This document shows, in pieces, positions 39,639-60,878 of a DNA stretch of 64,000 bases. The stretch is from Nitrospirota bacterium (GTDB lineage Bacteria; Nitrospinota; Nitrospinia; Nitrospinales; VA-1): contig QJZQ01000215.1 in assembly GCA_003246675.1 (NCBI GenBank), forward strand, positions 4,936 to 68,935, in the 5' to 3' direction. A program made the translations under genes and the position numbers. The stretch's first letter is position 1. The number at the start of each line of letters is the position of its first letter. The notes beneath the pieces were generated by a model. The model saw only the letters and a list, made by a program, of their open reading frames with translations, made no database searches and was not told the origin of the DNA.

Positions 39639-40893
39639 CGTCCCAGCCGGGAATCCTCACGATAAAGGTGGTCTTTTCTCCGATGGCGCTTTCGACATCG
39701 ATGGTGCCCTGATGGGCCTTGATGATGTTGTGGCAGATGGCGAGGCCGAGACCGGTGCCTTTGTCCTTGGTGGAAAAAAATGGATCGAAGATTTTCTCCA
39801 GGTGCTCCGCGGCGATACCGCCGCCGGTGTCGGAGATCGACAGCGTGACGAAGCGGCGGTGGTCGACGTTCCATCCCTCGTCGTCTGTTCCCGCCGGTTC
39901 TATCGAGACGCCAAGCTCGCCCCCTTCGGGCATGGCCTGAAGACCGTTTCTCAGCAGGTTATGAAACACGCGCCTGAGAAGCTCGCCGTCGCCGCTCACC
40001 CAGCATTCGCCGGGGGCGAACTGGCGGACGACGCGGATGTTTTCAGGCAGCTCAAGATCCGGCGAAGCCTCAAGCAGGTCGGTCAGCAGTTGCCGTACGT
40101 CGCACTTCTGGCGTGAGGGGCGCGGCGACTTGGCGAACAGCAGGAACGAGGAAATGATGCGGTCCATGTTCTTCACCCCGGCGCGGATGTGGTCGACAAG
40201 CGGGGCCGTGCCCGGGTCGCCGGCAAGGTCCTTCTTAAGCAGGGAGGCGAACAGTTCGATGCTTGCCAGCGGGTTGCGGATTTCGTGGGCGATGCCCGCG
40301 GCCATCTCCCCCATGGCGCGCAGGCGCTGGTTGCGCTGGGCCTCGTCTTCCAGGGTATGCAGCCGGGTGTTGTCCTGCAAAATGAGCACCGTGCCGATGG
40401 GTTGTTGATCCTGGTCGAACACGCGCGAGGCAAAGATGCGCAGGAAGAGGGGCTTTGCGTTTTCCCCGGGCAGCTCGCGGTCGAGGCTGATCGAGCGGCC
40501 GCTTTCGGTCACGCGCTGCACGAGGATTTCGAAAAGGTCGTGCGTGAAGACTTTCCGGAGAGGTTTGTTCAGGCAATCCGCCGGGGCTTGCCCGGTGATG
40601 AGGCCCGCGGTCCGGTTGCAAGTGGTGATGAAGCCCTGGTTGTCCACCACCAGAACGCCGCTGGTCAGGCTCTCGAGAATATTGCTCAGGTAATTCTTGA
40701 CCTCCTCCTTCTCCCGCAGGTTTTCGAACAGTTCCTGATTTTTACGCGCCAGCTCGAGGTCGAGCTGTTTCACGCGCTCTTTCAGGCTGTCGTAGGAGTC
40801 CTGGAGTTTGGCCGTCGCCTCGTTGAACGCCTGGAAGGCCTGGTTGAGGGCTTCCATATCCTCGGGAGTCCGGCCCCTGGCGGGCGGGATCAT
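39625..40893 (-). CDS. cytoplasmic PAS sensor histidine kinase (FlrB/FleS-like by context)
   Basis: ATG at 40893 forms an ATGA overlap with the upstream gene. No TM; coiled coil, PAS, H-box [13 protein letters not shown], and HATPase ([13 protein letters not shown]). Confidence 0.8.
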
Positions 40894-43418
40894 AAGCGGG
40901 TTTTGATGTTCTTTTCCCAATCGAGCACCTTGAGTTTGTTTTCCGCCGCTTGCCTCATCAGGTCATCGCCTTCTTCCGAATCGGCCATGCGTTTCAGTTC
41001 CCGGGTGAGGCTGCGGGTGTTCTTCTGTTTTTCATGGCTGTCGGCAATCAGGTAGTCGGCCCATGGTTTCTGCGAGTGTTCCGGAAACAGTTTGCGTGCC
41101 TGGTCGAGGGCCTTCACCGCTTCGGAGTATTGCCCGGACCGGTGGTACGTGGAACCCAGTTGGTAGTAGGAATCCCGGATGTAAGCGGGAATGGTGCGGA
41201 CATCCGGATCGAACGCGCCGATCGCTTTTTTGTATTGCAGGGCCGCCTTGTCCAGCTGCCCGAGGGCGCTGTGGGCCTCGGCCAGCAGGAAATGCACTTC
41301 CGAGGGGTCCTTGACGCGCCGCTTGAGAATGCTTTCGAAGGTGTCCACGGCCTCGCGAAGTCTTTTCTGCCCCCAATAGGCTTTGCCGAGGATTTTCAGG
41401 GCCTCGGGCGCGCGCGGGCTTGCCGGGTATTGCTTGAGGAAGGCCCGGGCGACCGCTTCCACCTCCTTGTAGTCCTTGCGTTCGAGGTGGATTTCTCCCA
41501 GGTTGATGAGGATGCGGTCGCTGAACACGCCTTTGGGGTCCTTGAGTTTCACGCGCTCGTAAAAATTGAGCGCCTCGGGGTAGAGGCCGATGGCCTGGTA
41601 GGCCTCGCCGATTTGCAGGAGAGTCTTGCGGTCCTTCACCTCGCCGAGCGACAGGCCCATGAAATCGCTGTAGCTGTATAAAACGGGCAGGGCGCCGCCC
41701 TGGTTGGAATACTTGTCGACCAGGAGTTTCAGGGTCTCCCGGATGCGCTCGCGGGCGCGCGGGTAGTGCTCGGAATCCGGCCCGAGGGGGAGCAGTTTCT
41801 TGAATTCCTCCAGCGCTTTCAGGTAGCTCTGTTGTTCGAGAAAGGAGTTGCCGCGGCTCAGGGTGATTTCGGCCAGGGTTCCCAGGTCTTCGGTCTGGCC
41901 TGCAACTTGTTGATAGGTCTTGAAGGGGTTGCGGTAGGCGGTGGCGTCGACGAGGTGGTCTTTCACCGGCAAGTTCGGCGAACGCACGCCGATGTCGGCC
42001 ATGCGGATGAGGGCGTAGCGCCCTTCGGAGCTTTGGGTTTTGCGCCGGGCCGATTCATCGAACACCGATAGCGCTTTCATATCCTGCTTTTCGATCAGAT
42101 AGGAATCGCCGATGATGTTGAGCGCCCGGTGTGCACGCGGGTCTTCCGGAGCCAGGTTGACGAGCTGGTACAGTGCGCTCCGTGCTTTGGGGTAGTTCGC
42201 GTTGCTGAAATAGATCTCACCCATGTAGAAATGGATTTCCGGCTGCTCGTTCAACTGGCTGGGCCAGCGGCGGGCGCCTTCCTCGTAGATCTTGAGCGCC
42301 CGGGGGAAATTGCCTTCGTCGTAGTGGTGCCGGGCGATGGTGAAAATCGCCTCGCGGGCGGCGATGTTTTTGGGCGCGTTCTTCAGCACATCCTGATAGG
42401 CATCGTAGGCTTCCACGTATTTGCCCTTGCTCATGAGCATGCTGGCCAGGTCGATCTGCCGCGCCTGGTTGTAGGGGTCGGCGGCGTTTTTCCTCAGGAC
42501 CTCCTCGTACAGGGCCTTGGCCTCGATGGTGTAGCCGATCTCGTTATAGATCTGGGCGATTTTGTATTGCGCGTGGCGCGCGAAACGGGAACCGGGGAAT
42601 TGCCTGAGCGCGAACTTGTACGCGTCGAGCGCGCGGTCATAGACGGGGTTCGCCTCCAGGTGGGCGGCCTGGTAACGGCTCTCCGCGATGAGGTACAGGA
42701 CTTCGGGCGCGTATTTGCTTTTGGGGTGCTTTTCCCAGAAGGCTTCGAGCCGTTCGATGGCTCCGGGGTAATCGTGCGCCTGGTATTTCTTGAGCGCCTT
42801 CAGGTAGTCGGTGTGGCCGTGCCGGGTTTTTTCGTCGTCGTCCTTTTTATTGATACCGCTCAGCTGTTCCTCGCTCAATCCCGCGATGCGGGCTTTTCTA
42901 TTGCGGGGCTCGCGTTTGTCGGCCGCCTTGGCGGGTACGGGCTTCGGTGCGGCCACCGGTGCGGGTTTCGGTGCGGCCACCGGTGCGGGTTTGACAGCGG
43001 GTTCCGCCCCCGGCGGTTTGAGATCGATCACCACCTGGAATGTTTTGCCGTCGATAAAGTGAGAAAAAACCGTGTCCTGTGCTTGCAGGCCGAGGGTCAC
43101 CCGGGGTGCGCCCGAAGAGGGTTCAACCCTAAGAGACGCGAGGTTCTTGTCCTGGTAGCTGCGCGACCGGATCGAAGCATCGAGCACCGCTCCGGGAAAG
43201 GTCAGCGTGACTGTTTTATTCGCAGGATCGGTTTTCACCTGATAATCCACCGGTCCGCTCAAATCGATGAGCAGGCGGGTAGCGCTCGGGTGAGGGCCGA
43301 GGCGGATGCGTTCCACCCGTGGCGCGGCGTCTTCGTTTTCGCTTGCGGCGTCGCCTGCGCCGGGGGACATCGCAAGCCCGGCGAGAATCAGGAAAATGTA
43401 GAAATAAAATCGCGCCAT
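40890..43418 (-). CDS. secreted AMIN-domain plus multi-TPR protein (842 aa)
   Basis: ATG at 43418 gives the signal peptide MARFYFYIFLILAGLAMSPGAGDA. AMIN-like VERIRLGPHPSATRLLIDLSGPVDYQV...VTLTFPGAVLD, a Pro/Ala/Lys linker, then about 15 TPR units. Confidence 0.7.
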   Translation of the reverse strand: MARFYFYIFLILAGLAMSPGAGDAASENEDAAPRVERIRLGPHPSATRLLIDLSGPVDYQVKTDPANKTVTLTFPGAVLDASIRSRSYQDKNLASLRVEPSSGAPRVTLGLQAQDTVFSHFIDGKTFQVVIDLKPPGAEPAVKPAPVAAPKPAPVAAPKPVPAKAADKREPRNRKARIAGLSEEQLSGINKKDDDEKTRHGHTDYLKALKKYQAHDYPGAIERLEAFWEKHPKSKYAPEVLYLIAESRYQAAHLEANPVYDRALDAYKFALRQFPGSRFARHAQYKIAQIYNEIGYTIEAKALYEEVLRKNAADPYNQARQIDLASMLMSKGKYVEAYDAYQDVLKNAPKNIAAREAIFTIARHHYDEGNFPRALKIYEEGARRWPSQLNEQPEIHFYMGEIYFSNANYPKARSALYQLVNLAPEDPRAHRALNIIGDSYLIEKQDMKALSVFDESARRKTQSSEGRYALIRMADIGVRSPNLPVKDHLVDATAYRNPFKTYQQVAGQTEDLGTLAEITLSRGNSFLEQQSYLKALEEFKKLLPLGPDSEHYPRARERIRETLKLLVDKYSNQGGALPVLYSYSDFMGLSLGEVKDRKTLLQIGEAYQAIGLYPEALNFYERVKLKDPKGVFSDRILINLGEIHLERKDYKEVEAVARAFLKQYPASPRAPEALKILGKAYWGQKRLREAVDTFESILKRRVKDPSEVHFLLAEAHSALGQLDKAALQYKKAIGAFDPDVRTIPAYIRDSYYQLGSTYHRSGQYSEAVKALDQARKLFPEHSQKPWADYLIADSHEKQKNTRSLTRELKRMADSEEGDDLMRQAAENKLKVLDWEKNIKTRL
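42943..42990. repeat. perfect 24-bp tandem repeat x2, in frame (KPAPVAAP x2)
   Basis: TTCGGTGCGGCCACCGGTGCGGGT occurs at 42943-42966 and again at 42967-42990. Confidence 0.95.
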
Positions 43419-43463
43419 TATTTGTCTGCGGGGGATTGCGGGTTCATAAGACAATTATATAAC

Positions 43464-43659: not shown

Positions 43660-45652
43660 TCAGGAGCGCTGCCGGGCCTCGCGGTCGAGGTTTTCCGCCA
43701 GTTCCCTGAGGGCGGGAGAGAATGTGACGGGGTGGGGCGGAGCGCTTTCCAGGCTGCGCAGGGTTTCGGGCAGGCGTTCGATCTCGCGGCGCGTGTGTTC
43801 CCGCAAGTCCGCCAGGCGCGGGGGCGGGGCGAGCCTTTTCCCCGCCCGCATGAAGGGTTGCAAAAGGCCCTTGCCGCCGGGGCTCTCGCAGGCGAGTTCC
43901 ACCCGGTCTTCGAGAAGCCGCCCGTCGCCATCGTAATGGCGTATCACCTGTTTTTTGCCCGGCCAGGTCGCCTTGCCTTCCGAGGTCTTGCGCCGCGCCC
44001 GGCCGTCGTATTCCTGAAGTTTGTAGGCGCAGTTGAGGTAAGGCGCATCGGCGGAGGTGGTGAGCCGGGTGCCGACGCCGAACCCGTCGATCGGTGCGTT
44101 CAGGGCCTTGAAGCGGGCAAGGGCGTATTCGTCGAGATCGCCGCTGGCGAAAATGGCGGTGTTTTTCAGGCCCCCCGCATCGAGAATGGCGCGCACCTTG
44201 AATGCGTGGTCGGCCAGGTCGCCGCTGTCGAGACGCACGCCGCGGATGGATAGGCCTTCTTCGGCGAGTTTCGGGGCGAGGGCCACCACTTTATCGGCCC
44301 CCCTTTCGGTATCGAAGGTATCGATAAGCAGCACCACGTTTCCCGGCTGCGAGCGCGCGAAATTGCGAAAGGCGTCTGTTTCGCTATCATGAGCGAGAAC
44401 GAACGAGTGCGCCATGGTTCCGAACACGGGGACACCCCAAAGGGCGCCGGCCTGAACCGTGGCGGTGCCGGCAAACCCGGCGAGGTAGCTTGCGCGCGCG
44501 GCGAGCAGGCCCGCTTCGGAACCGTGCGCCCGCCGGCAGCCAAAATCGATGAGTTTTTTGTCCGGCGTTTGCAGCACCATGCGCGCCGCCTTCGAGGCCA
44601 CGAGAATCGAGTGCTGCAACAGGTTGATGATGCGCGTTTCAACCAGCTGCGCTTCGGCCAGCGGGGCGGTGACGCTCAGCACCGGCTCGTCGGGGAAAAA
44701 GACGGTGCCCTCGGGCAGGGCGTGGACCTCGCCGCTGAAGCGAAAATCCACAAGCGAGTCGATGAACGCATCATGGAAAAAACCCGAGCGCCGCATCCAG
44801 GCGCGGTCGGCCGGGGTGAAGCGCAGCGTTTCCAGAAAGTTGAGCACGAGGTCGAGGCCGGCGGCGACAAGAAAGTTGCGCCCCGCGGGCAGCTCGCGCA
44901 CGAAAAACTCGAACACCGCCGTGGCGTTCATGCCGTGGTCGTGGTAGCCCTGCAGCATGGTGAGCTGGTACAGGTCGGTCCACAGGGCGTTTTCCCGCGC
45001 CGGGGCGGGCGCGAGCTGGTCCACCGTGATCAGGCGGCTGCCGAGCCGTTGCAATTCGTCGATGGCGCGCTCGCCGTCGCCGGGGTTCACGTCCACGGCG
45101 CGGATCGCATCGGTGAGGAGGAACACCTCGAAACCGAGCTTGAGCGCATCGCGCGCGGTGTAAAGCACGCAGTAATCGGTGGCGAGCCCGCCGATGAAAA
45201 GGCGGCGGATGCCCCTTGTCCTCAGGCGGTCGGCAAAGCCGGTGCCGTCGAAGTCGGAGTAGGCCTCGGCGTCCTTGTTCACCGCCTTGGAGATCACCTC
45301 GTCACCCGGCAGGATGTTGAGTGAGACAGCGAACTCGGCCCCCGGCGTGCCCTGAACGCAGTGCGGCGGCCAGGGCCCTCCCTGGCCAGGGCCCTCCCTG
45401 GGGCTTGAACGAGCAGTGGTTTTTCGGATGCCAGTCGCGCGTGGCGTACACCGGCAGCCCTCTCTCCCGGAAAATGCCAAGGTAGCGGTTTATGACGGCG
45501 AGGATTTCACCGCTGTGGGGCACCGCCAGGCTGCCGCCGGGAAGAAAATCGTTCTGCGGGTCGATGATGACGAGGGCGTCGCCCGGGCCGGGTACTGGAT
45601 TCGAAAGCGGATCGTTCATTCGCTGGCCTTTGCCGGAGGTTTCGCTCGTCAT
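43660..45652 (-). pseudogene. nicotinamidase (PncA, isochorismatase fold) fused to nicotinate phosphoribosyltransferase (PncB), frameshifted
   Basis: The upstream frame gives ALVIIDPQNDFLPGGSLAVP...TRDWHPKNHCSF...GGPWP. The downstream frame continues GGPWPPHCVQGTPGAEF...LATDYCV, then the NAPRTase part (LYQLTMLQGY...GTMAHSF...GVGT). The two frames are joined only if one copy of the 16-bp duplication is removed. Confidence 0.75.
45370..45401. repeat. perfect 16-bp tandem duplication CCAGGGCCCTCCCTGG x2
   Basis: Copies at 45370-45385 and 45386-45401 are identical. 16 nt is +1 mod 3, which exactly accounts for the frame change between ORFs 45302..45652 and 43660..45480. Confidence 0.95.
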
Positions 45653-45701: not shown

Positions 45702-47558
45702 TCAGCGTTTTTCGGGGAACGCCTCCCTCACCCGGGTTATGAAGTGGATGATGGAGCGCGTGCAGCCGAGCAGATCCGGCATCGAGAGGCTTTCGCCCGG
45801 CTCGTGCATCCGTGAGTCGGGGTCATAGGGCCCGAGGCAGATGGGCAACCCGCCCTTGAGCGCATCCATCAATTTGGGGACGAACGGGATCGAGCCGCCG
45901 CAGCCGTAGAGGCAGGCCGTTTGCCCGTAACCCTTTTCCAGGGCCTGCATGATCAGCGGGTACACCGGGTGGGTGATCGGCGTGCTCCACGGCGACGCAC
46001 CCTTTTCCAGCTGGAGATCGATTGCGAAACCGGCGGGCGTGTGGTCTTTGAGATGGCGGATCAGCCCTTCACCCGCCTTTGTTTCGTCGTTGCCGGGAGC
46101 CAGCCGCACCTCGACCACCGCTTTCGCCAAGCTCTCGCTGAAGGGCCGGGCCGTTCCGTCGTTTTCCACGCGCAGGGAGCGGGTAGAGAGCGCCGGGCCT
46201 TCTGCGGACGCATCGGCCCAGGGTTCAAGCTCGGCTGCGAGGGCTCCATCGTCCGCCACCAGGCGGTCGATGAAGCGGGCAAGCAAAAGCTCGGCAATGG
46301 GGAAGGGGCCGCCGTGGACGCCGGAATGCGGGTCCTTGACCGCCGCGCGGACGACGAGGTCGAACGCCAGTCCCTGCCTTTCATCCTCGGCCGCGTTCAC
46401 GCTCAGCCGCAGCCCGAACCGGTTGTGGGCCTGAATGAAATTCTCCAGGCATTTTTGCAGTTCGCCGGGGTTTTTGGGCGAGCCCGGAAAAATCAGCCGC
46501 GCTCCGGCGGCACCGAAAACCACGCCTCCCGCAACGCGATGCCCCGGACGGCAGTTGACGTAGGATTGGCGCAATTGGGCGATGAGCAGCGAGGCGGTAT
46601 CCTCCGGCACGGTGAGCCGGGTTTCGGGCAAAAGGCCCGCGCTTTCCCGCAGCTGCCGAACCGTGGTGGGCACCTGGGAGTACCCCTTGCGTTCCTCTTC
46701 GGTCACCGGGGTGTCGTCGATGCCGCGTATCGCGATCCTGTGATCCTCGTCGATCAGGGAGGCGAGGGTCTTGTAGAGCGCGGTTTGCGCGTCCAGCCGG
46801 GCGGAGCCGTTGCGGGGCCTGAGACAGGCGGTGAGCTGCACGATGCCCCGCAGCGAAGTGGTCAGCCCCGGCACCCCCTGCGCCGGGTTGATGACATCGG
46901 TGATGATGACGCAATCAGTGCCGGTGAAAAAATCCCGGTTGTCGAGGATCTGCTCCACCAGCGTGTGTGAGCCGCTTTCTTCTTCGGTTTCGTAGATGAC
47001 CTTGATGTTGCACGGCAGGGCGGCGAACTGCTCGGGCGGCCCGCCGGGAACGAGGCCGAGGCAGGAAAGCAAAGCCTCCACCGCCATGCCGATGGCCACC
47101 ACGCCGCTCAAGTCGTCGGCAGCGCCCCGGCCGAAGGCGCGGCTTTTGTCCTCGTTCCAGCGAAGCTCGGTGGGGGGTACACCGTCCCACTGCAGGAACC
47201 GGCCGTCGTCCATGTACGGCTGCTTGTCCAGGTGGGCGTAAAAAAGAACCGTCGGTTTTTCGCGGGAAGCGAAGATTTCCGCCATCAGGATCGGCGTGGA
47301 GCGCACGGGGCCCGGCTTCGGGCGGTTGATGCGCACCGTCGGGAACCCGATGCCGCGCAGGTAGGCCTCGGCGCAGGCCAGGATCTCCTGCATGTCGCTC
47401 GGCGTTTCGCGGTCGCCCTCGAATTCGTTCACGTTGAAACTGCGGCTGTCGATTTTCACCATGGCGGCAAGCGCTTTAAGGTGGCGCTCGACGAGGGGCG
47501 CGCCCGGGCGGATTTTTTCCCTCGCTTGTTGATCCAGTTCATTCAGGTTCACGGACAT
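45702..47558 (-). CDS. M20/M25/M40-family metallopeptidase-like protein (long, 618 aa)
   Basis: VLFYAHLDKQP, FGRGAADDLSGV and ETEEESGS metal-ligand-type blocks, plus a C-terminal MHEPGES motif. Confidence 0.7.
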   Translation of the reverse strand: MSVNLNELDQQAREKIRPGAPLVERHLKALAAMVKIDSRSFNVNEFEGDRETPSDMQEILACAEAYLRGIGFPTVRINRPKPGPVRSTPILMAEIFASREKPTVLFYAHLDKQPYMDDGRFLQWDGVPPTELRWNEDKSRAFGRGAADDLSGVVAIGMAVEALLSCLGLVPGGPPEQFAALPCNIKVIYETEEESGSHTLVEQILDNRDFFTGTDCVIITDVINPAQGVPGLTTSLRGIVQLTACLRPRNGSARLDAQTALYKTLASLIDEDHRIAIRGIDDTPVTEEERKGYSQVPTTVRQLRESAGLLPETRLTVPEDTASLLIAQLRQSYVNCRPGHRVAGGVVFGAAGARLIFPGSPKNPGELQKCLENFIQAHNRFGLRLSVNAAEDERQGLAFDLVVRAAVKDPHSGVHGGPFPIAELLLARFIDRLVADDGALAAELEPWADASAEGPALSTRSLRVENDGTARPFSESLAKAVVEVRLAPGNDETKAGEGLIRHLKDHTPAGFAIDLQLEKGASPWSTPITHPVYPLIMQALEKGYGQTACLYGCGGSIPFVPKLMDALKGGLPICLGPYDPDSRMHEPGESLSMPDLLGCTRSIIHFITRVREAFPEKR

Positions 47559-48029: not shown

Positions 48030-49100
48030 ATGCGTCCCGAAGACCTCAAGGAACATCTTCCCGCCAATGCCCGGATCCTCATCATCAAGCTGCGTTCCAT
48101 CGGCGATGTGATCTACAACACCGCGGTTTACACCCCGCTCAAGAAGACCTGGCCGGACGCGCATTTAACGGTGATGGTCGAGCCGGCGGCGTACGACCTG
48201 GTGCGGGATCATCCCGATGTGGACGAGGTGTTCTGTTTTAAAAAAGGGACCTGGCTCGAGCAGGCGGGCTCTTACGCCCGGTTACTCGCCCGCCGTTACG
48301 ATCTGGTGGTGGACATGCATGGGGGGCCGCGCGCCGCGCTGATGAGTTATATCACCCGCTCCCGTTTTCGAGCCGGCAGCGACCGGGGAAGGCGGGCGTT
48401 TTTGTATAACCTGCCGCTATCGCTGGATGGTTATACGCTGCAATACCCGCTCGATTATCAGGCCGCCATCATAAGCCGGCTGGGTGTCGAATTTACCGAA
48501 AAGGCGGCGCCGGCGATTCATATTTCGCAAGCCAGCCGCGACAGGGCCGGAGAAATTCTGCGCGGCCTGGGTGTTGGCCCCGGGACCCCTTATATGATCC
48601 TCCATCCCGGTGCGCGGGCATTTGACCAATGGCCAGCGGAAAACTTCGCCGCTGTGGCCGACGAGGTGCATCGCCAGTACGGCTACCGCGTGCTGTTCAC
48701 CTGCGGCCCCGGGCAGGAAAAGCAGGTGGAGAGCGTGAGATCCCGGGTCCGGGAAGCCCGCACCGCTTATTTTAGCTCCGGCCTGCAGGAGATCGCCGTT
48801 ATCACCGAGAACGCCCGGCTGGTGGTGTGTCATAATGGCGGCTACATGCACCTGGCGGCCGTGGTCGGCGCGCCGGTGGTGGCTTTGTTCGGCGGCGCCA
48901 ACCCGAGAATCTGGGGGCCGCCCCTGGGCCGGACCGCCATCCTGTATAAAGATCTGCCCTGCCACCCGTGCAGCTTCGGCAGCATGCGGCCGGAATGCCG
49001 CGCCACCGCCGCGGAATGTAAAAGCGAGATCACCGTGGAGGACGTTCTTGCGGCGGCCGAAAAGCTTCTCGCCGCAAGAGGCGCTGGCGAGTTAGCCTGA
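48030..49100 (+). CDS. glycosyltransferase family 9 (LPS heptosyltransferase-like)
   Basis: ILIIKLRSIGDVIYNTAVYTPLKKTWPDAHLTVMVE, then later HNGGYMHLAAVVGAPVVALFG. Confidence 0.8.
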   Translation: MRPEDLKEHLPANARILIIKLRSIGDVIYNTAVYTPLKKTWPDAHLTVMVEPAAYDLVRDHPDVDEVFCFKKGTWLEQAGSYARLLARRYDLVVDMHGGPRAALMSYITRSRFRAGSDRGRRAFLYNLPLSLDGYTLQYPLDYQAAIISRLGVEFTEKAAPAIHISQASRDRAGEILRGLGVGPGTPYMILHPGARAFDQWPAENFAAVADEVHRQYGYRVLFTCGPGQEKQVESVRSRVREARTAYFSSGLQEIAVITENARLVVCHNGGYMHLAAVVGAPVVALFGGANPRIWGPPLGRTAILYKDLPCHPCSFGSMRPECRATAAECKSEITVEDVLAAAEKLLAARGAGELA

Positions 49101-51587: not shown

Positions 51588-52673
51588 TCATGTTTCGGGT
51601 GTGGTTTTCAGGGCATCGTTAAACATGCCGATCAGCCGTTCGGTATTTTTATCCCAATCGAACTCAAGAACCTTTCGTCGCCCGTTTTCCGCCAGGCGGC
51701 GCAGACGCTCTTCATCGTCCAGAAGGGAAGCCAGGTTTGCCGCCAGTTTTTCCGGGTTGCGGGGCGGGGAGACCAAGGCTGTTTCTTCGTGGATGGCGTA
51801 ATCGCGGCAGCCGCCCGTATCGGTGGTCACCAGGGCCGCGCCGCAGGCGAGGGCCTCCATGCCGGGCAGGCCGAACCCTTCGTGCCAGCTGGTGCAAAGA
51901 AAAATGTCCGCCGATGCGTAAATTTTTCGCAAGGCCTCACCGGTGGGGCGGTAGTGATATTCGAATTCGAAACCCGCCTCGGCATACAGAGGGCGAGGGT
52001 CCTTCATCTTTTCGCCGAACACCACCAAGTCGATTTCTTTTCCCATCTCACGGACCTGGCGCACCGCGGCGATGCCGTCCTTATAACCTTTCCATTCGTA
52101 ATTATGGTGCAGCATCAAAACCCGGCGTGGCCGGTTCCATGTTTTGTTTTCGCAAAAAAACTGCGCGCGGTTGACCGGGGTGATGAACACCTCGGACGTC
52201 TGCTGATAATCAGTTTCGAGAATGGTCTTCAGCCAGGTGGAAACGACGATTTTGTTAAACGGCAGGCGATAGGTTCGCTCCGCGTCGTTGCGGTTGCCCG
52301 ACCAGAGGCTTTCGTGGTGCTGGATGAAATAAAATACTTCGCCCTGGGCCGGGCGGCACTCGGCGGCGAACTCGGCGGTCTGCCAGGCCGTGGCCACCAG
52401 GATGTCGGCATCGGGCAGCAGGCTGGTGTCCAGCCTGGGCAAAACGTCAATGGGAATTTGATTGTCGAACCAGTCCACCGTGCTTGCCGGCAGGGTTCGA
52501 ACCTGCTTGAAGTGAGCCACCAGCCTTCTTAGCAGGCGGTACCACCGCTCTTTTTTAGGCAGGACGACAAGGTGGACCTCATGGCCGCGGGCGTGCAGGC
52601 GCTGCGCGTATTCCAGGATCACCCGGACCCCGCCACTGAGACGGACATGCGGTAGAAGAAAGAAGATTTTCAC
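51588..52673 (-). CDS. glycosyltransferase family 4
   Basis: MKIFFLLPHVRLSGGVRV...; EGFGLPGMEALACGAALVTTDTGG. Confidence 0.8.
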   Translation of the reverse strand: MKIFFLLPHVRLSGGVRVILEYAQRLHARGHEVHLVVLPKKERWYRLLRRLVAHFKQVRTLPASTVDWFDNQIPIDVLPRLDTSLLPDADILVATAWQTAEFAAECRPAQGEVFYFIQHHESLWSGNRNDAERTYRLPFNKIVVSTWLKTILETDYQQTSEVFITPVNRAQFFCENKTWNRPRRVLMLHHNYEWKGYKDGIAAVRQVREMGKEIDLVVFGEKMKDPRPLYAEAGFEFEYHYRPTGEALRKIYASADIFLCTSWHEGFGLPGMEALACGAALVTTDTGGCRDYAIHEETALVSPPRNPEKLAANLASLLDDEERLRRLAENGRRKVLEFDWDKNTERLIGMFNDALKTTPET

Positions 52674-53297
52674 GGACAGGGTTGGGAGATTGGAAGTTTA
52701 ATTTTGATTTTCACGGGGTCATGAAAATAAGCGGGTTCGTATTTGGGCCTCGAACTTGCGCCGGGGTGGGCTGGTTTTGCCGCCCTGACTTCAAGCTCGA
52801 AAGCCGCCTCAACCAATGGGTACGCTACTCGGAGGGGCTCAATGCACCTCGCGTGAATTTCCGATACCCGTGATCAATATACTCAACGTTTGTAAATCGA
52901 TTTTGAACGTTACTGAAACCATTTCTATGGGAAAAGATGAGAGGATATGAGATGAAGCTGTTGAATTTGCCTTGTGCATGCTCTCGGTAAAAGACATCCA
53001 CAATCTGCATATTCGGCTTATTTCCCGGGATGTTATCCAACAGCCCCAACTCGCTGGCGCATCGGATAACATCCGTTCCTGGCCGGTCCCCGTCCTTTTC
53101 TGTTCTTGAAATGTATCTTTAAGTTGCCCGACACTGGCCTGGAGTCCACCTCGCGGCGTTCTGGCACTCCATAATGAATTTATCGTGTTATCCAACTTCT
53201 GACTTCGTTCCGGGCTATATCATTTCCTCGCCATCATCCCCAGTCCTTTTGCGATAGCTAAATTACTCGCGGTGGAAACCGCCGCAGAGATCGAAGG

Positions 53298-54062
53298 TTA
53301 TTTTTTCTTTAACCAGGCGCAGGGCCAATGGGTGATATTCTGATCGAGGTTGCTTTCGTTAAATTGCCAGGGAGGGGTTTCAAGGACGAATTCCGGGTGC
53401 TCCGAAATAAAGTTCTCCACTGCCATTACCGGATTATCCTCTGCCCAATCTTCTTTTCCTCGGGGGACATCATACAGATCCTGCATAATTCCATCGGTCG
53501 CAACTATGTAGGAGCCCTGTGTCACCAGATCCCCATATGCCTGCAGCTCACCCAGCACATGCTGCCTGCTGTGATTGGAGTCGAGAATAACCAGGGTGGT
53601 TTCCCCGGGTTGTATCAGGGATTTGACTTGTTCCACGATCTCCGGCGCGATCGAACTGCCTTCCACGAGGGTGATGTATGGGGATAAATCGTGCTCTTCG
53701 ATGGCCTTCCGGTTATGTGGGCGAATTTCGATATCAATTCCGATAACTCTCCCCTTCCCCAGAGCTTTGCACAGGCTGGCGGAAAATATCAGTGAACCGC
53801 CGTGTGCGACTCCGGTTTCAATGATGACATCCGGCCGAAGACTGAAGATCACTTCCTGAGTTCGAATCATGTCCTCAGGCAGTTGGATCACCGGCCTGCC
53901 CATCCAGGAGAAGGTGTAGGTATATTTTTGATTCCATCCCATCTTCAGCCACTGCCGCGAAATCAGCTCAAACGCTTCCTTGGAGTAGAGGTCAATTTCT
54001 CGACTCTTGTCATTGGTTTCCAGTAACAGGGTCTTTTTTTCGGAATCGATCGTCAGTTTCAT
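53298..54062 (-). CDS. CmcI/cephalosporin-hydroxylase-family methyltransferase (sugar O-methyltransferase-like)
   Basis: WMGRPVIQLPEDMIRTQEVIFSLRPDVIIETGVAHGGSLIFSA and ILDSNHS are typical of PF04989. Confidence 0.8.
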   Translation of the reverse strand: MKLTIDSEKKTLLLETNDKSREIDLYSKEAFELISRQWLKMGWNQKYTYTFSWMGRPVIQLPEDMIRTQEVIFSLRPDVIIETGVAHGGSLIFSASLCKALGKGRVIGIDIEIRPHNRKAIEEHDLSPYITLVEGSSIAPEIVEQVKSLIQPGETTLVILDSNHSRQHVLGELQAYGDLVTQGSYIVATDGIMQDLYDVPRGKEDWAEDNPVMAVENFISEHPEFVLETPPWQFNESNLDQNITHWPCAWLKKK

Positions 54063-54103
54063 TTTTTCCTCTGTAAAGCCTTTCGCGGTTAGGCAGGTTT
54101 ATT

Positions 54104-55012
54104 TTATTTGCCGGCGAGACTTTTCCACCAGTTTATAGTCCTATTCAATCCTTCATCCAAATCGATTTTGGGTCTCCAGCCTAATTGTGTAAATAATTTC
54201 TGTGTGTCGGCCACCAAAACCGGCGGTTCGCCCTCCGGCGAGGGCAGGGCACCGAAGTGGACCCGTCGTGACTCTCCCAGCTTTTCAGCGGTATGTGAAA
54301 TAATTTTTTTAATTTTGACCGGTTCTCCGGAACCAATATTTATAGGCCCCTCTACATTGCTTTCCAAGAGGGCCGTGAACGCTTCCGCCGCATCGGAAAC
54401 ATATAGATAATCCCTAATTTGATTACCATGAGAGCATTGCGCAGGCTTTCCTTCAAGAAGAGAATTGATCACCGACGGAACGAGCCGGACAGGGTGCTCA
54501 AATGGACCGTAGACGAAAAAAATACGCCCCCAGGCGCTGCTTATCCCGACCTGTTTGCTGTAAGCACTCAACAGGGCCTGCAAGGAGTTTTTACATACTC
54601 CATACAACGATTTGGGGAGCAAGTGGGTTATGGTTTCCGAAAAGACGCCTTGATTCCAGTCGTACTCGGCACAGCTTCCGGCCATAACGATTCGCTCTCC
54701 ACCTCTTTCGGCAAACTCTTGCATCAGGTTAAGGCTGGCACGCACCCAGCGGATATTTTCTGTGGAATGCCAGTATTTCCCCGGCTCCGCATACCAGGCA
54801 AAATGAAGAAGGTGCGTGGGTTGGATCAAATCGATCAATCTCTTGATTTGGCCAGGGGCTAAAAGATCAGCCTGATGCCATTTGATATTTGAAGTATTGT
54901 CTTCGGGGGGATTCCGGCAGACGGCGTTGACCTCAAAAGCTTTGTCATTAAGAAATGGCAGGCAATGGCGGCCGATAAACCCTGACGCACCCGTCACTAG
55001 AACTTTTTTCAT
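54104..55012 (-). CDS. NAD-dependent epimerase/dehydratase-family SDR (probable NDP-4-keto sugar reductase)
   Basis: VLVTGASGFIGRH Rossmann motif and YGVCK (YxxxK). Confidence 0.8.
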   Translation of the reverse strand: MKKVLVTGASGFIGRHCLPFLNDKAFEVNAVCRNPPEDNTSNIKWHQADLLAPGQIKRLIDLIQPTHLLHFAWYAEPGKYWHSTENIRWVRASLNLMQEFAERGGERIVMAGSCAEYDWNQGVFSETITHLLPKSLYGVCKNSLQALLSAYSKQVGISSAWGRIFFVYGPFEHPVRLVPSVINSLLEGKPAQCSHGNQIRDYLYVSDAAEAFTALLESNVEGPINIGSGEPVKIKKIISHTAEKLGESRRVHFGALPSPEGEPPVLVADTQKLFTQLGWRPKIDLDEGLNRTINWWKSLAGK

Positions 55013-55539
55013 CCTTCAAAGCCGGGATATTGCTGGTCTTTTATGGAGATTATTTTTTCGTAAATTGGCCATTCGATTCCGAAGGCCGGGTCATCCCATC
55101 GAATGCCACGGGCGCTTTGCGGGCGATAGAACTCTGACATTTGGTAAAACATCTCGGTCTCATCCTGAAGGGTCTGGAACCCATGGGCAAAGCCTTCCGG
55201 GATATAAAGTTGGGTGCGATTTTCCGCCGAAAGCTCGACCGCCATCCATTTTTTGAACGTGGGGGAATCGGTGCGCAAATCAATGATAACGTCATAGATC
55301 GATCCCTTGGTCACGCGAATGAGTTTGGCTTCCTCATAAGGTTTTATCTGGAAATGCATCCCCCTCAAGGTGCCCTTCCGCCTGTTGAACGAAATATTGC
55401 ATTGCGCCAGATTGGGGTTCAGGTTGTTCGATTGGAATGTTTCGCGGCAGTACGTTCGGGCGAAAAAACCTCGCTCGTCCTCAATCCGTTCTGGTTCGAT
55501 GACGAAAGCGCCCTTCAAAAATGTTTCCTTGAATATCAC
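55009..55539 (-). CDS. NDP-4-dehydro-6-deoxyhexose 3,5-epimerase (RmlC-like cupin)
   Basis: GTG at 55539 shares one base with the upstream TAG. FVIEPERIEDERGFFARTY, LRGMHFQ, KLIRVTKGSIYDVIIDLR and IPEGFAHGF. Confidence 0.8.
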   Translation of the reverse strand: MIFKETFLKGAFVIEPERIEDERGFFARTYCRETFQSNNLNPNLAQCNISFNRRKGTLRGMHFQIKPYEEAKLIRVTKGSIYDVIIDLRTDSPTFKKWMAVELSAENRTQLYIPEGFAHGFQTLQDETEMFYQMSEFYRPQSARGIRWDDPAFGIEWPIYEKIISIKDQQYPGFEG

Positions 55540-56777
55540 TACAATATCTTCAGCTTGGGCAGGGGGACAACAAACCTTCCCCCCCATTCCCGGATCAGGC
55601 TCATCTGATCCATGATTTCGTTTTGAATATTCCAGGGCAGGATGAACAGGTAATCGGGCTTTGTTTCTCTTATTCGCTCCGGAGGAAAGACCTGGATATG
55701 CGTTCCCGGCAAAAAACAACCTTGCTTGGCTGGGTTCCGGTCCACTGCATAATCGATGAAATCCTTCCCAATGCCACAATAGTTAAGAAGCGTATTGCCC
55801 TTGGCGGCGGCGCCATAAACCACGATTGACTTGCCCTCTTGTTTGAGGTCTATCAAAGCGGTAATAATTTCGCGTTTCTTGTCGCGCACCTTTTGTGAAA
55901 ATGTTTCATACGCCTCAAGCCGATTCAGCCCTGCCGCTACCTCCAGTTCCCTGAAGCGGTTCAGGCTTTCAGAGGGCGGAAACGATTTGGTTCCTTCATG
56001 TTTGACAAAAATACGTAAGGAACCGCCATGGGTTTTGAGCTCTTCCACATCGAACAACACTAGCCCGTGTTTTTCAAAAACCTTTTCCAACGCTACCAGG
56101 GAAAAATAGGAAAAATGCTCATGGTAAATCGTATCGAATTGAGTCTCATCCATCAACCGGAGCACATGAGGGAACTCCAGGGTCAGAATCCCATCCGCTT
56201 TAAGGAGGATCCTAAGTCCCTCGACAAAATCATGCAGGTCGGGAACGTGAGCCAAAACATTGTTTCCCAGAAGAAGATCTGCTTGCTTCTTCTGCTCCAC
56301 CAGCTGTTCCGCCAGAGCAATACCAAAAAAATCCGTGACCATGGGGATGCCTGAATCCTCCGCCACCTGGGCGACGTTTTTTGCAGGTTCGATCCCCAGA
56401 ATCTGAAAGCCCCTTTCTTTAAAATTTTTGAGAAGGTAACCATCGTTGCTGGCCACTTCTATGACCCTGCTGGACGGGGCAAGTCCAAAGCGCTTCACCA
56501 TCATCTCCGTATACTGACGCGCGTGTTCAAGCCACGTTTGGGAGTAAGAGGAGAAATAGACGTAATCGCTAAAAATATTTTCCGGACTTTCATATTCTTC
56601 CAATTGAACTAGAAAACAAGCTTCACATACGTAGGCATGGAGTGGATAAAATGCTTCGGACTGTTTCAGTTGTTTGGCTTTCAAAAACGAATTTGAAAGA
56701 GGAGTCATTCCTAAATCACAAAAAGTGACTCTTAGGACTTCGCCACAGGATCTGCATGTTTGGAGAGGGATATTCAT
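55539..56777 (-). CDS. NDP-hexose C-methyltransferase (TylCIII-like; Zn-ribbon + SAM MTase + C-terminal C-MT domain)
   Basis: CRSCGEVLRVTFCDLGMTPLSNSF N-terminus, SAM motif VIEVASNDGYLL, and C-terminal YGAAAKGNTLLNYCG...PGTHIQV. Confidence 0.8.
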   Translation of the reverse strand: MNIPLQTCRSCGEVLRVTFCDLGMTPLSNSFLKAKQLKQSEAFYPLHAYVCEACFLVQLEEYESPENIFSDYVYFSSYSQTWLEHARQYTEMMVKRFGLAPSSRVIEVASNDGYLLKNFKERGFQILGIEPAKNVAQVAEDSGIPMVTDFFGIALAEQLVEQKKQADLLLGNNVLAHVPDLHDFVEGLRILLKADGILTLEFPHVLRLMDETQFDTIYHEHFSYFSLVALEKVFEKHGLVLFDVEELKTHGGSLRIFVKHEGTKSFPPSESLNRFRELEVAAGLNRLEAYETFSQKVRDKKREIITALIDLKQEGKSIVVYGAAAKGNTLLNYCGIGKDFIDYAVDRNPAKQGCFLPGTHIQVFPPERIRETKPDYLFILPWNIQNEIMDQMSLIREWGGRFVVPLPKLKIL

Positions 56778-57844
56778 GCTAGAGATTGAAATCGGTTGAT
56801 CTGTTCTTCGGTGATCTTTCTCAGGTTGCCTCGGTTCTCAAAGACCTTATACCACTCCACAGTCCAACCCAATGCTTCCTCCAGGTTAAGCCGAGGTATC
56901 CAGTTGATGTGAATATTCGCCTTTGAGCAATCCAGTCGAAGGGTCTTTGACTCATGGGGGTGCGCTGTGGAATCGAGTTCCCAGGAGGTGTTGTCACCCC
57001 AGATTTTGACAAGACGGTCAACAATCCAGGATACCTTTTGTTCGTCCTTTCTAAGCGGGCCAAAATTCCAGGCGCCCGAAAACTCCGCCGGCTTTTCCCA
57101 TAGATGTTCCGCCAGGACCAAATAACCATTGAGGGGATCTAGAACGTGCTGCCAGGGCCGGATGGAATCCGGGTTGCGAATGGTCACGGCCTGTTTTTTC
57201 AAAAAAGCATTGACCATATCCGGAATCAGGCGATTTGGGGCCCAGTCGCCTCCTCCAATCACATTGCCGGCCCTGACCGAAGCAATACCCTTGATATCTG
57301 CCTGAGACGTCCGGTTTTCAAAAAAGGAGTGGCGATAGGCGGCGGTCACCAGTTCCGCACATCCCTTACTGCTGGAGTAAGGATCCAGGCCACCGACAGG
57401 TTCATTTTCCCTATAGCCCCAGTCCCACTCTTTGTTCTCATAACATTTGTCACTGGTTACAACTATCACCACCCGGGTGGGTGAGCAACTTCTGACTGCT
57501 TCCAGCAGGTGAGCCGTTCCCATGACATTGGTAGCATAGGTTTCCAAAGGTTGATTGTAGGAGGGAATTACCAGCGATTGGGCCGCCATGTGGATCACGA
57601 TATCCGGTTGGCTTTCTTTCAACGCGGAAGTTAAGCTCTCCAAGTCGCACACGTTGCCGACGATGGAATGCATTCCTTTCGCGACCCCCGCTCTTTCAAA
57701 AAGATTAGGGTCCGTCAAAGGTTCCAGAGCATAACCGGTTAACTCGGCACCAAAACCTTGCAACAATAAGGAAAGCCAGCTCCCCTTAAATCCCGTATGT
57801 CCGGTGATAAATGTTTTTTTTCCTTTCCAGAAGTCGGGATTCAT
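56774..57844 (-). CDS. rfbG: CDP-glucose 4,6-dehydratase
   Basis: [34 protein letters not shown], and typical RfbG length and C-terminus. Confidence 0.9.
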
Positions 57845-58611
57845 CGCCAGATTTTCCAGGGGGCATTATTGGATTGCCATAAATCTTCCAGGTAGTTTTT
57901 ATCGCGCAGGGTATCCATGGCATGCCAGAATCCCTGGTGAGTGTATGCGGACAAGTTTCCCTCGCGGGCGAGAGTCTCAAGAGGTTTGCGCTCCCAGACT
58001 GTTTTATCGCCGTCGATATAGTCCAGAGTCTGTGGAGACAGCACAAAAAAACCTCCGTTGATATACCCTCCATCTCCTTCAGGTTTTTCCTGAAAGGTGG
58101 TGATCTTGTTCCCCTGCAAATTGATTGCGCCAAATCGACCGGGTGGCTTGGTGGCGGTGAGGGTGGCGAGGGTTCCCTGCTTTTTATGAAAAGCGATGAG
58201 TTGGTTGATATTCACATCCGCCAAGCCATCTCCATAGGTAAAACAAAAATCCGATTGATCCAGGTAGTTTTTGATTCTTTTCAATCTTCCGCCGGTCATG
58301 GTCTCTTCCCCGGTATCCACCAAAGTCACTTTCCACGGTTCGGCCGTGTGCTGATGAACCTCCATTTTATTTTTGGCGACATCAAAGGTGACATCGGACA
58401 TGTGCAAAAAATAATTGGCGAAGTACTCTTTGATCATATAGCCCTTAAACCCCAGGCAAACCACGAAGTCATTCAATCCGTAGGACGAGTAAATTTTCAT
58501 GATGTGCCAGAGAAGTGGTTTGCCGCCAACCTCCACCATGGGCTTGGGGCGCATCTGAGTCTCCTCGCTGATGCGAGTGCCCATTCCTCCAGCCAATATA
58601 ACAACCTTCAT
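57841..58611 (-). CDS. rfbF: glucose-1-phosphate cytidylyltransferase
   Basis: [18 protein letters not shown]...[20 protein letters not shown]...GGFFVL...[11 protein letters not shown] closely matches enterobacterial RfbF as I remember it. Confidence 0.9.
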
Positions 58612-58974
58612 AAGTCAACTATCAACATGAATGATCCGGATGAAAATTGCGTTATGAAAAACCGCGATTTTATGTCTAAAAAAGAGGGAATAGTGCGGCG
58701 TAAAGGAAAAAACTGGAACAGCTCTAATCGTATTATAATGTTGAGAATATCATACCTTATGATATAAAAGAAAGAAGGCCGATAGATTAGATTTTGTCAA
58801 TTCAATATTTTTAACATAATTTCCTCAATAAATATAGATGAGTTTGCCGGGAAAAACCTTCTCAAATAAGAGCCTGGGCTTTCTCTTCAAACGGGTTTTA
58901 CGCCCGATCATTTTCAAACAAGCTGGCCGGTTTCGAGCCATCCCCAATAATTCAGCCAAAACCAACGACCCCCC

Positions 58975-60075: not shown

Positions 60076-60222
60076 AGTCTTGTCGGTTACGTTCCCCTTC
60101 TCCCTTCCTATTGCCATTATCCCACAATATTCTGTAGGGGCCATGGATTGCCATCTTTTTATTAATGCTCTTCGAGAGCCTTCCTGTCCCTTGGCATTCC
60201 AGAGAAGACACTTTTCATGGAG

Positions 60223-60384
60223 CTACCCATTATGGTAGTCGGATTCCGCCAAGTTCTTGCCATGGAGAGACCATAACCTTCTTTTTCCATACAGAATGCC
60301 GTTCTTAAGGCGACCTTCTTCAATAAGATTTCCATCGCCATCAAGGAATTGTTTTACCTCTATGTCTTTAGATTTATGCGACAT
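60223..60384 (-). pseudogene. MORN/YwqK-like repeat gene fragment with in-frame TAG
   Basis: My hand translation gives MSHKSKDIEVKQFLDGDGNLIEEGRLKNGILYGKRRLWSLHGKNLAESDYHNG*. The repeat pattern continues after the stop (LHEKCLLWNAKGQ). Confidence 0.35.
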
Positions 60385-60506
60385 AAGTAATTACCTGGCG
60401 AGAAAAATCTATAAATGGAATATATTTAGGCGGTTCTTATGAATCAGGATTCCCACCATTTCTATTATATGGGGCGCGTCGAAACGACGCTCGTGGTTGG
60501 AATGCT

Positions 60507-60808
60507 TTAACAACTCTCATCATTAACCCTTTCCATTGCCTTCTTCACCGGAAAATAAATTATCCGCTTTATCGTCCTTTCTTCCAGGCCAGCCGCAAAG
60601 TCTGTAAAGACTCCACCAATGCCTCCTACAGCGAAGCCCACGCAGCACCTTCAATAGTGCCAACTCCTGGTGAAACGTATGTTCCAACATTTGCTCCTGA
60701 AGCTTCGCCAACCTTGCATTCCACCACGGGCACTCCCGTCTCCGTCTGCTGCATGGCAAAGGCATCTGCCCCCTCAGAAAATCGCTTCTTCAAGGCAAAA
60801 TCCCGCAT
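60507..60808 (-). pseudogene. possible frameshifted glycine-zipper small membrane protein
   Basis: ORF 60626..60808 ends ...GVGTIEGAAWASL*. A different frame continues VGFAVGGIGGVFTDFAAGLEE..., which suggests one disrupted reading frame. Confidence 0.25.
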
Positions 60809-60878
60809 TTAAAACCGCAATTTTACCCTATTACTAAACCTTCAACCTGTACAGTTTTCAAGGCAGAGGTTCCTTACT

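What the first reader, a model, noticed from the sequence alone, without database searches (positions are those of the whole stretch)
45370..45401. Perfect 16-bp tandem duplication breaks the pncA-pncB fusion gene
- CCAGGGCCCTCCCTGG occurs twice back to back.
- With both copies present, the minus-strand frame reads ...KPQGGPWPGRALAAALRSG... and stops at 45302.
- Deleting one copy by hand gives ...KPQGGPWPPHCVQGTPGAEFAVSLNILPGDE.... This is the conserved nicotinamidase core, and it runs in frame into the NAPRTase domain for about 647-658 aa in total.
- The event therefore looks like a very recent slippage or duplication. It could be a fresh pseudogenisation, a reversible on/off switch, or a sequencing or assembly artefact.
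Basis: seen in the sequence. Interest (0 to 1): 0.55.

Follow-up and report, generated by a model that had tools for sequence, protein, structure and literature searches.

The report
16-bp duplication frameshifts a pncA-pncB gene
A perfect 16-base tandem duplication, absent from the five nearly identical relatives found, breaks the reading frame of an otherwise conserved two-enzyme NAD-salvage gene in a Nitrospinaceae contig; this is an ordinary strain-specific knock-out or, less likely, an assembly error.

Summary
CCAGGGCCCTCCCTGG occurs twice back to back at 45370-45401, and nowhere else in the window. About 3e-5 such repeats are expected by chance.

It lies in a minus-strand gene (43660-45652). 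With one copy removed, the gene is a 658-aa fusion of nicotinamidase (PncA) and nicotinate phosphoribosyltransferase (PncB).

- **Fusion is normal here.** It is the usual architecture in Nitrospinaceae, including Nitrospina gracilis, and in many other bacteria.
- **Relatives are intact.** Five independent metagenome contigs, 98.4-99.4% identical in DNA, all carry one copy and an intact 658-aa ORF. More distant orthologues (80%, 74%, about 60% aa) do too.
- **The two-ORF state is derived.** It is unique to this contig, whose deposited annotation-aa and 540-aa genes.
- **Effect on the enzyme.** The shift falls after Trp89. It separates Asp31/Asp73/His75 from His92/Lys117/Cys156, so nicotinamidase is lost. 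PncB might still be made by reinitiation (inferred).
- **Likely origin.** The duplication abuts a 41-bp window-specific patch of mostly synonymous substitutions. This patch created the 2-bp flanking microhomology and lengthened a hairpin stem.
- **Age.** No other disabling mutation is present, so the event is recent.

No evidence supports a switch or programmed frameshift. An artefact cannot be excluded without reads. Low interest.

The parts
45370..45385 (-). Copy 1 of the 16-nt unit (+ strand CCAGGGCCCTCCCTGG; coding strand CCAGGGAGGGCCCTGG). In the gene's orientation this is the downstream copy.
45386..45401 (-). Copy 2 of the 16-nt unit, identical to copy 1. In the gene's orientation this is the upstream copy.
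45368..45401 (.). Full period-16 tract (34 nt). It includes the 2-nt microhomology (coding strand CC) that flanks the unit and makes the exact duplication breakpoints ambiguous.
   Evidence: TRF; matched run of 18 at period 16
43660..45652 (-). Disrupted pncA-pncB fusion gene. It is 658 aa once one copy is removed: PncA domain at residues 26-207 and NAPRTase at residues 214-656.
45302..45652 (-). N-terminal fragment ORF as it stands (116 aa). Residues 1-90 are authentic PncA, followed by 26 out-of-frame residues. The stop TGA is at 45304-45302. It is annotated as a separate gene in the deposited record (P0127).
43660..45282 (-). C-terminal ORF as annotated in the deposited record (540 aa, from GTG 45282; P0123/P0125). 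It holds the rear half of PncA plus the complete NAPRTase. This frame is open upstream to 45489. GTG codons at 45297 and 45282 lie 4 and 19 nt after the upstream stop.
45385..45425 (-). Window-specific patch of 7 substitutions directly upstream (in gene orientation) of the duplication. The window reads CCG AAA..TGC..TTC AAG CCC; all five close relatives read CCT GAA..TGT..TTT AAA GAG. The changes are mostly synonymous. The 23-nt stretch CACTGCTCGTTCAAGCCCCAGGG is identical to the 74%-aa lineage L089.
45702..47558 (-). Upstream neighbour on the same strand, 49 nt away: an M20-family peptidase gene. The same gene order (M20 peptidase, pncAB, TPR protein, PAS histidine kinase) is found in L082, L083 and L089.

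Best explanation
The feature is a lineage-specific, recent 16-bp tandem duplication inside the nicotinamidase (PncA) half of a bifunctional pncA-pncB NAD-salvage gene.

**Origin (inferred).** It most likely arose by replication slippage or microhomology-mediated re-priming. The nascent strand ending in ...CCCTGGCC re-paired with the CC 16 nt upstream. A short hairpin (CCAGGG-AGGG-CCCTGG) may have helped. A prior short recombination patch (GAG to CCC) created the 2-nt microhomology and the sixth stem pair, so it set the site up for the event.

**Consequence (shown).** The frame shifts by +1 after Trp89. The N-terminal product (116 aa) keeps Asp31, Asp73 and His75 but loses His92, Lys117 and Cys156. 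The nicotinamidase is therefore inactivated.

**PncB (inferred).** The intact NAPRTase half may still be translated by termination-reinitiation at GTG 45297 or 45282.

**What it is not.** It is not an ancestral gene arrangement, not a conserved regulatory device and not a programmed frameshift.
For: - **Repeat.** A perfect 2 x 16 nt repeat, unique in the window.
- **Repaired ORF.** It gives a full-length Isochorismatase domain plus NAPRTase. It aligns with P. horikoshii PncA 1ILW/1IM5 at E = 4e-60, with all six active-site and metal residues conserved.
- **Fusion is the norm.** All 120 listed homologues carry both Pfam domains, including Nitrospina gracilis and N. watsonii. The fused gene is found in dozens of genomes.
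- **Close relatives have one copy.** Five contigs from four samples at 98.4-99.4% nt identity have one copy and a 658-aa ORF. The 80% and 74% lineages also have one copy.
- **Two-copy allele is unique.** The 116-aa product forms a cluster with a single member, from the 71,517-bp source contig only.
- **The adjacent patch looks biological.** It is codon-structured, with four of the six changed codons synonymous, and it matches the L089 lineage over 23 nt.
- **No sign of generally poor sequence.** About 17 kb compared with sister contigs contains no single-base indel. The only two indels are this one and an in-frame 24-bp repeat unit.
- **No further decay.** Downstream of the shift there are only 3 differences from L084 (2 synonymous). 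At the third, the window keeps the Gly that the 80% and 74% orthologues also have.
Against: - No read-level data are available, so a technical origin of the extra copy cannot be excluded.
- The hairpin is no more stable than dinucleotide shuffles (z = -0.4 to -1.1), and a 2-nt microhomology is weak. The proposed slippage mechanism is plausible but not demonstrated.
- Reinitiation for PncB rests only on the positions of the GTG codons and a weak AAGG upstream of GTG 45282.
- 'Recent' is relative. No one-copy sequence carrying the same patch was found, so the age of the duplication within that haplotype is unknown.
Confidence: 0.72

Rival explanations
1. The extra 16-nt copy is a technical artefact. 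It could come from assembly, merging of strain variants, polymerase slippage during whole-genome amplification, or a consensus error. In that case the organism has an intact pncA-pncB gene.
For: - The two-copy allele is seen in one contig only, although the same record is held by both NCBI and JGI/IMG.
- It lies at the edge of a strain-variant patch, where assemblers must choose between haplotypes.
- The unit is GC-rich and partly palindromic.
- The second indel relative to L082 is also a perfect tandem duplication in the window.
Against: - Roughly 17 kb of comparison with sister contigs shows no single-base indels or other frameshifts.
- A 32-nt perfect duplication cannot arise in a de Bruijn assembly unless reads contain the junction k-mers (general knowledge of assemblers, not tested here).
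- The neighbouring substitutions are codon-structured and match another natural lineage, so the local sequence is biological.
- The 24-bp difference lies in a Pro/Ala-rich linker, where real copy-number variation is common.
Confidence: 0.2
2. The duplication is one state of a reversible on/off switch for nicotinamide salvage. Gain and loss of the 16-nt unit by slippage would toggle the gene, and both states would be maintained in the population.
For: - An 18-nt direct repeat in tandem can be lost precisely by slippage, restoring the gene (general knowledge).
- The gene is otherwise undamaged.
Against: - Only two copies are present.
- All five near-identical contigs, and every more distant orthologue inspected, have one copy.
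- No second two-copy product exists in the 15-billion-protein collection.
- In the relatives the unit is not even flanked by the same microhomology (GC against CC).
- A housekeeping salvage enzyme is not the usual kind of gene under phase variation.
Confidence: 0.04
3. The frameshift is bypassed during translation. A +1 ribosomal slip, for example at CCC-U within the repeat, would give a full-length fusion with a 5-residue insertion (..KPQGGPGQGGPWPPHC..).
For: - Both frames are open across 45302-45489.
- CCC-U is a known +1-prone sequence (general knowledge).
Against: - No orthologue conserves the two-frame arrangement.
- No stimulatory element was found, and Rfam has no match in the window.
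- The product would carry an insertion next to the metal ligand His92.
Confidence: 0.02
4. The split into a short pncA fragment gene and a separate pncB gene is the ancestral or normal arrangement of this lineage.
For: Stand-alone pncB genes exist in other phyla, for example Photobacterium and Methylocaldum loci.
Against: - Neither fragment holds a complete PncA domain: profile 2-62 in one and 54-175 in the other.
- All Nitrospinaceae relatives from 60% to 99% identity are fused.
Confidence: 0.01

Closest known systems
Fused nicotinamidase-NAPRTase (PncA-PncB) proteins of Nitrospinaceae, e.g. Nitrospina gracilis 3/211 'Nicotinate phosphoribosyltransferase (modular protein)' (P0075), N. watsonii (P0086) and a MAG Nitrospinaceae chromosome, CP070799.1 (P0002/L001)
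   Same: - The domain order and length (about 645-663 aa) are the same, and the QGGPWPPHC motif is the same.
- Gene neighbours are the same in the close relatives.
- The repaired window protein is 80% identical to P0002 and 98% identical to P0001.
   Different: The window copy carries a 16-nt tandem duplication after codon 89 and is therefore split into 116-aa and 540/606-aa ORFs.
Pyrococcus horikoshii nicotinamidase/pyrazinamidase PncA (PDB 1ILW/1IM5)
   Same: - The N-terminal domain aligns over residues 23-203 at E = 4e-60.
- Asp10/Lys94/Cys133 and Asp52/His54/His71 correspond to Asp31/Lys117/Cys156 and Asp73/His75/His92. The residue roles come from the published structure and are cited from memory.
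   Different: - 1ILW is a stand-alone 180-aa enzyme.
- In the window the frameshift separates the first three of these residues from the last three.
Loss-of-function pncA alleles caused by small insertions or duplications, as in pyrazinamide-resistant Mycobacterium tuberculosis (general knowledge)
   Same: A small frameshifting insertion in pncA abolishes nicotinamidase, and the gene is dispensable under some conditions.
   Different: - Different organism and a fused gene.
- No drug selection is known here.
- It is not shown that the allele is fixed, or even real, in the population.
Simple-sequence-repeat contingency (phase-variable) loci
   Same: A tandem repeat within a coding region sets the reading frame.
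   Different: - Only two copies of a long (16-nt) unit are present.
- There is no copy-number polymorphism among relatives.
- The gene is a metabolic housekeeping gene.

Membership tests
Nicotinamidase PncA (isochorismatase-like hydrolase, Pfam PF00857) | Full-length match to the domain model in one polypeptide | tested here: not met
   As it stands, the 116-aa ORF covers profile positions 2-62 and the downstream ORF covers 54-175. After removal of one 16-nt copy the match is 2-175 of 175, E = 1.3e-33, 117 bits against a cutoff of 27.
Nicotinamidase PncA (isochorismatase-like hydrolase, Pfam PF00857) | Catalytic triad Asp-Lys-Cys and metal ligands Asp-His-His | tested here: met
In the unrepaired gene they are divided between two ORFs.
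Nicotinamidase PncA (isochorismatase-like hydrolase, Pfam PF00857) | NCBIfam equivalog NF008623 (E. coli-type bifunctional nicotinamidase/pyrazinamidase) reached at its curated cutoff | tested here: not met
   147.3 bits against a cutoff of 174 for the repaired protein. The domain is closer to the archaeal-type PncA (1ILW).
Nicotinamidase PncA (isochorismatase-like hydrolase, Pfam PF00857) | Nicotinamide deamidase activity | not testable with these tools
   Needs an enzyme assay of the one-copy and two-copy alleles.
Nicotinate phosphoribosyltransferase PncB (NCBIfam NF006696 / TIGR01513) | Equivalog model reached at its curated cutoff, full length | tested here: met
   NF006696 scores 621.3 bits against a cutoff of 503, over residues 214-656. 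TIGR01513 scores 478 against 297. This part lies downstream of the frameshift and is intact.
Fused PncA-PncB architecture of Nitrospinaceae | Both domains in one ORF of about 645-660 aa | tested here: not met
   The relatives are all fused. The window gene is fused only after one repeat copy is removed. It is a disrupted member.
Phase-variable contingency locus (repeat-mediated switch) | Repeat copy number varies among closely related sequences or within populations | tested here: not met
   The five relatives at 98.4-99.4% identity all have one copy. The two-copy product is a singleton cluster. Within-sample variation could not be tested.
Programmed ribosomal frameshift gene | The two-frame arrangement and a slippery or stimulatory site are conserved in orthologues | tested here: not met
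   All orthologues are single-frame. No Rfam element is present.

The most novel reading that the evidence does not exclude
The 16-nt duplication is a naturally segregating, reversible knock-out of nicotinamide recycling in an uncultured Nitrospinaceae population. It would be created at a site sensitised by a recombination patch and lost again by precise slippage. Sub-populations would then toggle between recycling nicotinamide and not recycling it.
Probability: 0.04. Interest if true: 0.4.

Novelty: already known. Interest (0 to 1): 0.12.

Why it matters
It matters little beyond annotation.

- **Annotation.** The 116-aa and 540-aa gene calls in the deposited record should be read as one frameshifted pncA-pncB gene.
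- **Metabolic reconstruction.** Any reconstruction for this genome should not count nicotinamidase as present unless reads show the one-copy allele.
- **Mutation mechanism.** It is a tidy small example of a short recombination patch creating the microhomology that a later tandem duplication used.
- **Architecture.** It confirms that the fused PncA-PncB architecture is the norm across Nitrospinaceae.

Tried and rejected
- **Metagenome DNA scan.** A scan for the 3' junction string, intended to count one-copy and two-copy alleles, returned only three very distant pncA homologues that share the conserved QGGPWPPHCV coding string. It found no close relatives.
- **Source contig.** Look-ups of the source contig through its own products (P0127, P0125) found nothing on record. 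I could not tell whether the source is a MAG, a SAG or an isolate.
- **Hairpin.** The hairpin exists (6-bp stem, or 8 bp in the two-copy form) but folds no better than dinucleotide shuffles. I do not claim it as significant.
- **Polarity of the 24-bp repeat difference.** L089 and L001 are too diverged in that linker to serve as outgroups, so the polarity could not be set.
- **Literature.** Two searches for a described PncA-PncB fusion found no paper that characterises it.
- **RNA elements.** The Rfam and tRNA scans of the window were empty.
- **Transposon footprint.** I considered a target-site duplication left by an excised element. I rejected it because 16 nt is atypical and there is no element remnant.
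- **Other frameshifts.** A crude GC3 and open-frame survey of the window showed no other obvious same-strand frame switch within a gene. This was not a rigorous test.

Full report
**1. The observation**

The + strand reads ...GCGG CCAGGGCCCTCCCTGG CCAGGGCCCTCCCTGG GGCTTG... with the two identical 16-nt units at 45370-45385 and 45386-45401. TRF reports 45368-45401, period 16, 2.1 copies, 100% matches and no indels. The tract is 34 nt because two bases (coding strand CC) are shared at both ends. The unit occurs nowhere else in the window on either strand.

Only four perfect tandem duplications with a unit of 8 nt or more exist in the 64 kb, of 9, 10, 16 and 24 nt. At this base composition about 3e-5 perfect 16-nt duplications are expected (my calculation).

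**2. The gene**

The repeat lies on the coding strand of a minus-strand gene.

| State | ORF | Coordinates | Source |
|---|---|---|---|
| As it stands, N-terminal | 116 aa, from ATG 45652; stop TGA at 45304-45302 | 45302-45652 | |
| As it stands, second frame | open from 45489 down to the stop at 43660 | 43660-45489 | |
| One unit removed | 658 aa | 43660-45652 | |

The repaired protein has these matches:
- Pfam places a complete Isochorismatase domain at residues 26-207 (profile 2-175 of 175), then the NAPRTase_N, NAPRTase and NAPRTase_C domains.
- NCBIfam places a nicotinate phosphoribosyltransferase equivalog (NF006696) at 214-656, with 621 bits against a cutoff of 503.
- The E. coli-type nicotinamidase equivalog NF008623 scores below its cutoff, 147 against 174.
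- The N-domain matches the solved P. horikoshii nicotinamidase 1ILW/1IM5 at E = 4e-60.

Through that alignment, Asp31/Lys117/Cys156 correspond to the catalytic triad and Asp73/His75/His92 to the metal ligands. The residue roles are from the published structure, cited from memory.

The frameshift falls after Trp89. The 116-aa product keeps Asp31, Asp73 and His75 but not His92, Lys117 or Cys156. The unrepaired fragments each match only part of the domain, profile 2-62 and 54-175. Nicotinamidase cannot be made from either fragment alone.

**3. Relatives**

All of the best 120 carry both PF00857 and NAPRTase-family domains in one protein of about 560-830 aa, most about 640-660 aa. They include Nitrospina gracilis 3/211 ('modular protein'), N. 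gracilis, N. watsonii and many Nitrospinaceae MAGs. A scan of one genome per species found the fused gene in Nitrospinaceae, Methylococcales, Verrucomicrobia, Marinobacterium, Photobacterium, chlamydiae and others. Stand-alone pncB genes also exist in some lineages. The window therefore comes from a Nitrospinaceae bacterium, and the fusion is the family's normal state.

*The closest sequences.* The best cluster (at least 90% identity) holds five intact 658-aa proteins from five contigs in four samples: JGI 3300015263 (two contigs), JGI 3300009509, SRR25893877 and SRR20819509. It also holds two 540-aa entries from a 71,517-bp contig held by NCBI and JGI/IMG. The 116-aa product is on that same 71,517-bp contig and is a singleton cluster. 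The window is therefore a faithful piece of a deposited record in which the gene was called as two genes.

*DNA alignment.* I fetched the five contigs and aligned the genes.
- They are 98.4-99.4% identical to the window.
- The only indel is the 16-nt unit, which is present once in all five.
- The 80% (L001), 74% (L089) and about 55-60% lineages also have one copy.
- Gene order (M20 peptidase, pncAB, TPR protein, PAS histidine kinase) is shared.

The two-ORF arrangement is therefore derived and unique to this contig.

**4. The local context of the duplication**

Compared with its closest relative L084, the window gene has 11 substitutions. Seven of them lie in the 41 nt that immediately precede the duplication in gene orientation, at 45385-45425.

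| | Sequence |
|---|---|
| Window | CAT CCG AAA AAC CAC TGC TCG TTC AAG CCC CAG |
| All five relatives | CAT CCT GAA AAC CAC TGT TCG TTT AAA GAG CAG |

Four of the six changed codons are synonymous. The two replacements (K/E at 77, P/E at 84) are at positions that vary among orthologues. The stretch CACTGCTCGTTCAAGCCCCAGGG is identical to the 74% lineage L089.

This is the signature of a real, selected allele, most simply a short recombination tract. Similar substitution patches occur elsewhere in the 13.5-kb comparison with L082, for example 19 substitutions in 45571-45643.

The patch matters mechanistically. In the relatives the sequence is GAG-CAGGGAGGGCCCTGG-CC. This gives 1 nt of flanking microhomology and a 5-bp hairpin stem. 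In the window's inferred one-copy ancestor it is CC-CCAGGGAGGGCCCTGG-CC. This gives a 2-nt direct repeat exactly 16 nt apart and a 6-bp stem.

I infer slippage or re-priming on this CC microhomology. The hairpin is not more stable than shuffled controls, so this step is plausible and not shown.

**5. Real or artefact, recent or old**

- **Sequence quality.** Over about 17 kb compared with sister contigs, the window shows no single-base indel. The only two indels are this one and an in-frame 24-nt repeat unit in a Pro/Ala-rich linker. General sequence quality is therefore high.
- **Decay.** Downstream of the shift, the 1.8-kb frame has no stop. It differs from L084 at three positions. Two are synonymous. 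At the third, the window keeps the Gly that the 80% and 74% orthologues also have. There is no sign of decay, so the disruption is recent or not real.
- **Limits.** Without reads I cannot separate the two. I put a real allele at about 0.7 and an artefact at about 0.2.

**6. Switch or programmed frameshift**

- **No copy-number variation.** No relative shows copy-number variation, and no other two-copy product exists in the 15-billion-protein collection. Orthologues do not conserve a two-frame arrangement. Rfam finds nothing.
- **What remains possible.** Precise loss of one copy is mechanistically possible, as is a low-level +1 slip at CCC-U. Neither has any evidence.
- **Reinitiation.** The upstream ORF's stop (45304-45302) is followed 4 and 19 nt later by in-frame GTG codons (45297 and 45282). 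The latter is the start chosen in the deposited annotation. The intact NAPRTase half could therefore still be translated by reinitiation. This is an inference only.

**7. Verdict**

The finding is an ordinary strain-specific frameshift, by a recent tandem duplication, in a known and widely conserved fused NAD-salvage gene. It has practical value for annotation and small mechanistic interest because of the adjoining patch. It is not a new kind of feature.

Noticed in passing
window 42943-42992 (TRF array 42934-42992), inside the minus-strand TPR/AMIN-like gene 40890-43454: A second perfect tandem duplication: a 24-nt unit, in frame, encoding an extra KPAPVAAP. The window has one unit more than the 99.3%-identical contig L082. 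Together with the 16-nt event, these are the only two indels in 13.5 kb of comparison.
   Followed up: partly
window about 52700-61000: A low-GC island (0.44-0.53 against 0.60-0.65 elsewhere) carrying CDP-sugar and O-antigen-type genes: a nucleotidyltransferase at 57841-58611, a 4,6-dehydratase-like gene at 56774-57844, a C-methyltransferase-like gene at 55539-56777, epimerases, and a GT2 at 58975-60075. Four other metagenome contigs (L090-L093), which together cover 55992-59738, are 99.5-99.9% identical there with no indels.
   Followed up: partly
window 45571-45643, 48320-48351, 52028-52050: Substitutions relative to L082 are strongly clustered, for example 19 in 73 nt over the N-terminal extension of pncAB. 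There the window shares a haplotype with L084 but not with L081, L082, L083 or L085. This suggests a recombination mosaic among co-existing strains.
   Followed up: partly
L086 1827-1855, L087 8744-8772, L088 350-378: The 29-nt coding string CAGGGAGGGCCCTGGCCGCCGCACTGCGT (QGGPWPPHCV) is identical at the DNA level in three otherwise very distant pncA homologues. L087 even carries the window-type CCAGGGAGGGCCCTGG unit, in one copy.
   Followed up: no
L012, L016, L024, L032, L033, L039, L041, L044 (L018 has a separate pncA about 1.6 kb upstream): In several Gammaproteobacteria and other genomes the closest homologue is a stand-alone pncB with no fused pncA. The fusion has therefore been gained or lost repeatedly across bacteria.
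   Followed up: partly
whole window: There is no tRNA gene and no Rfam family match at gathering threshold in 64 kb.
   Followed up: yes
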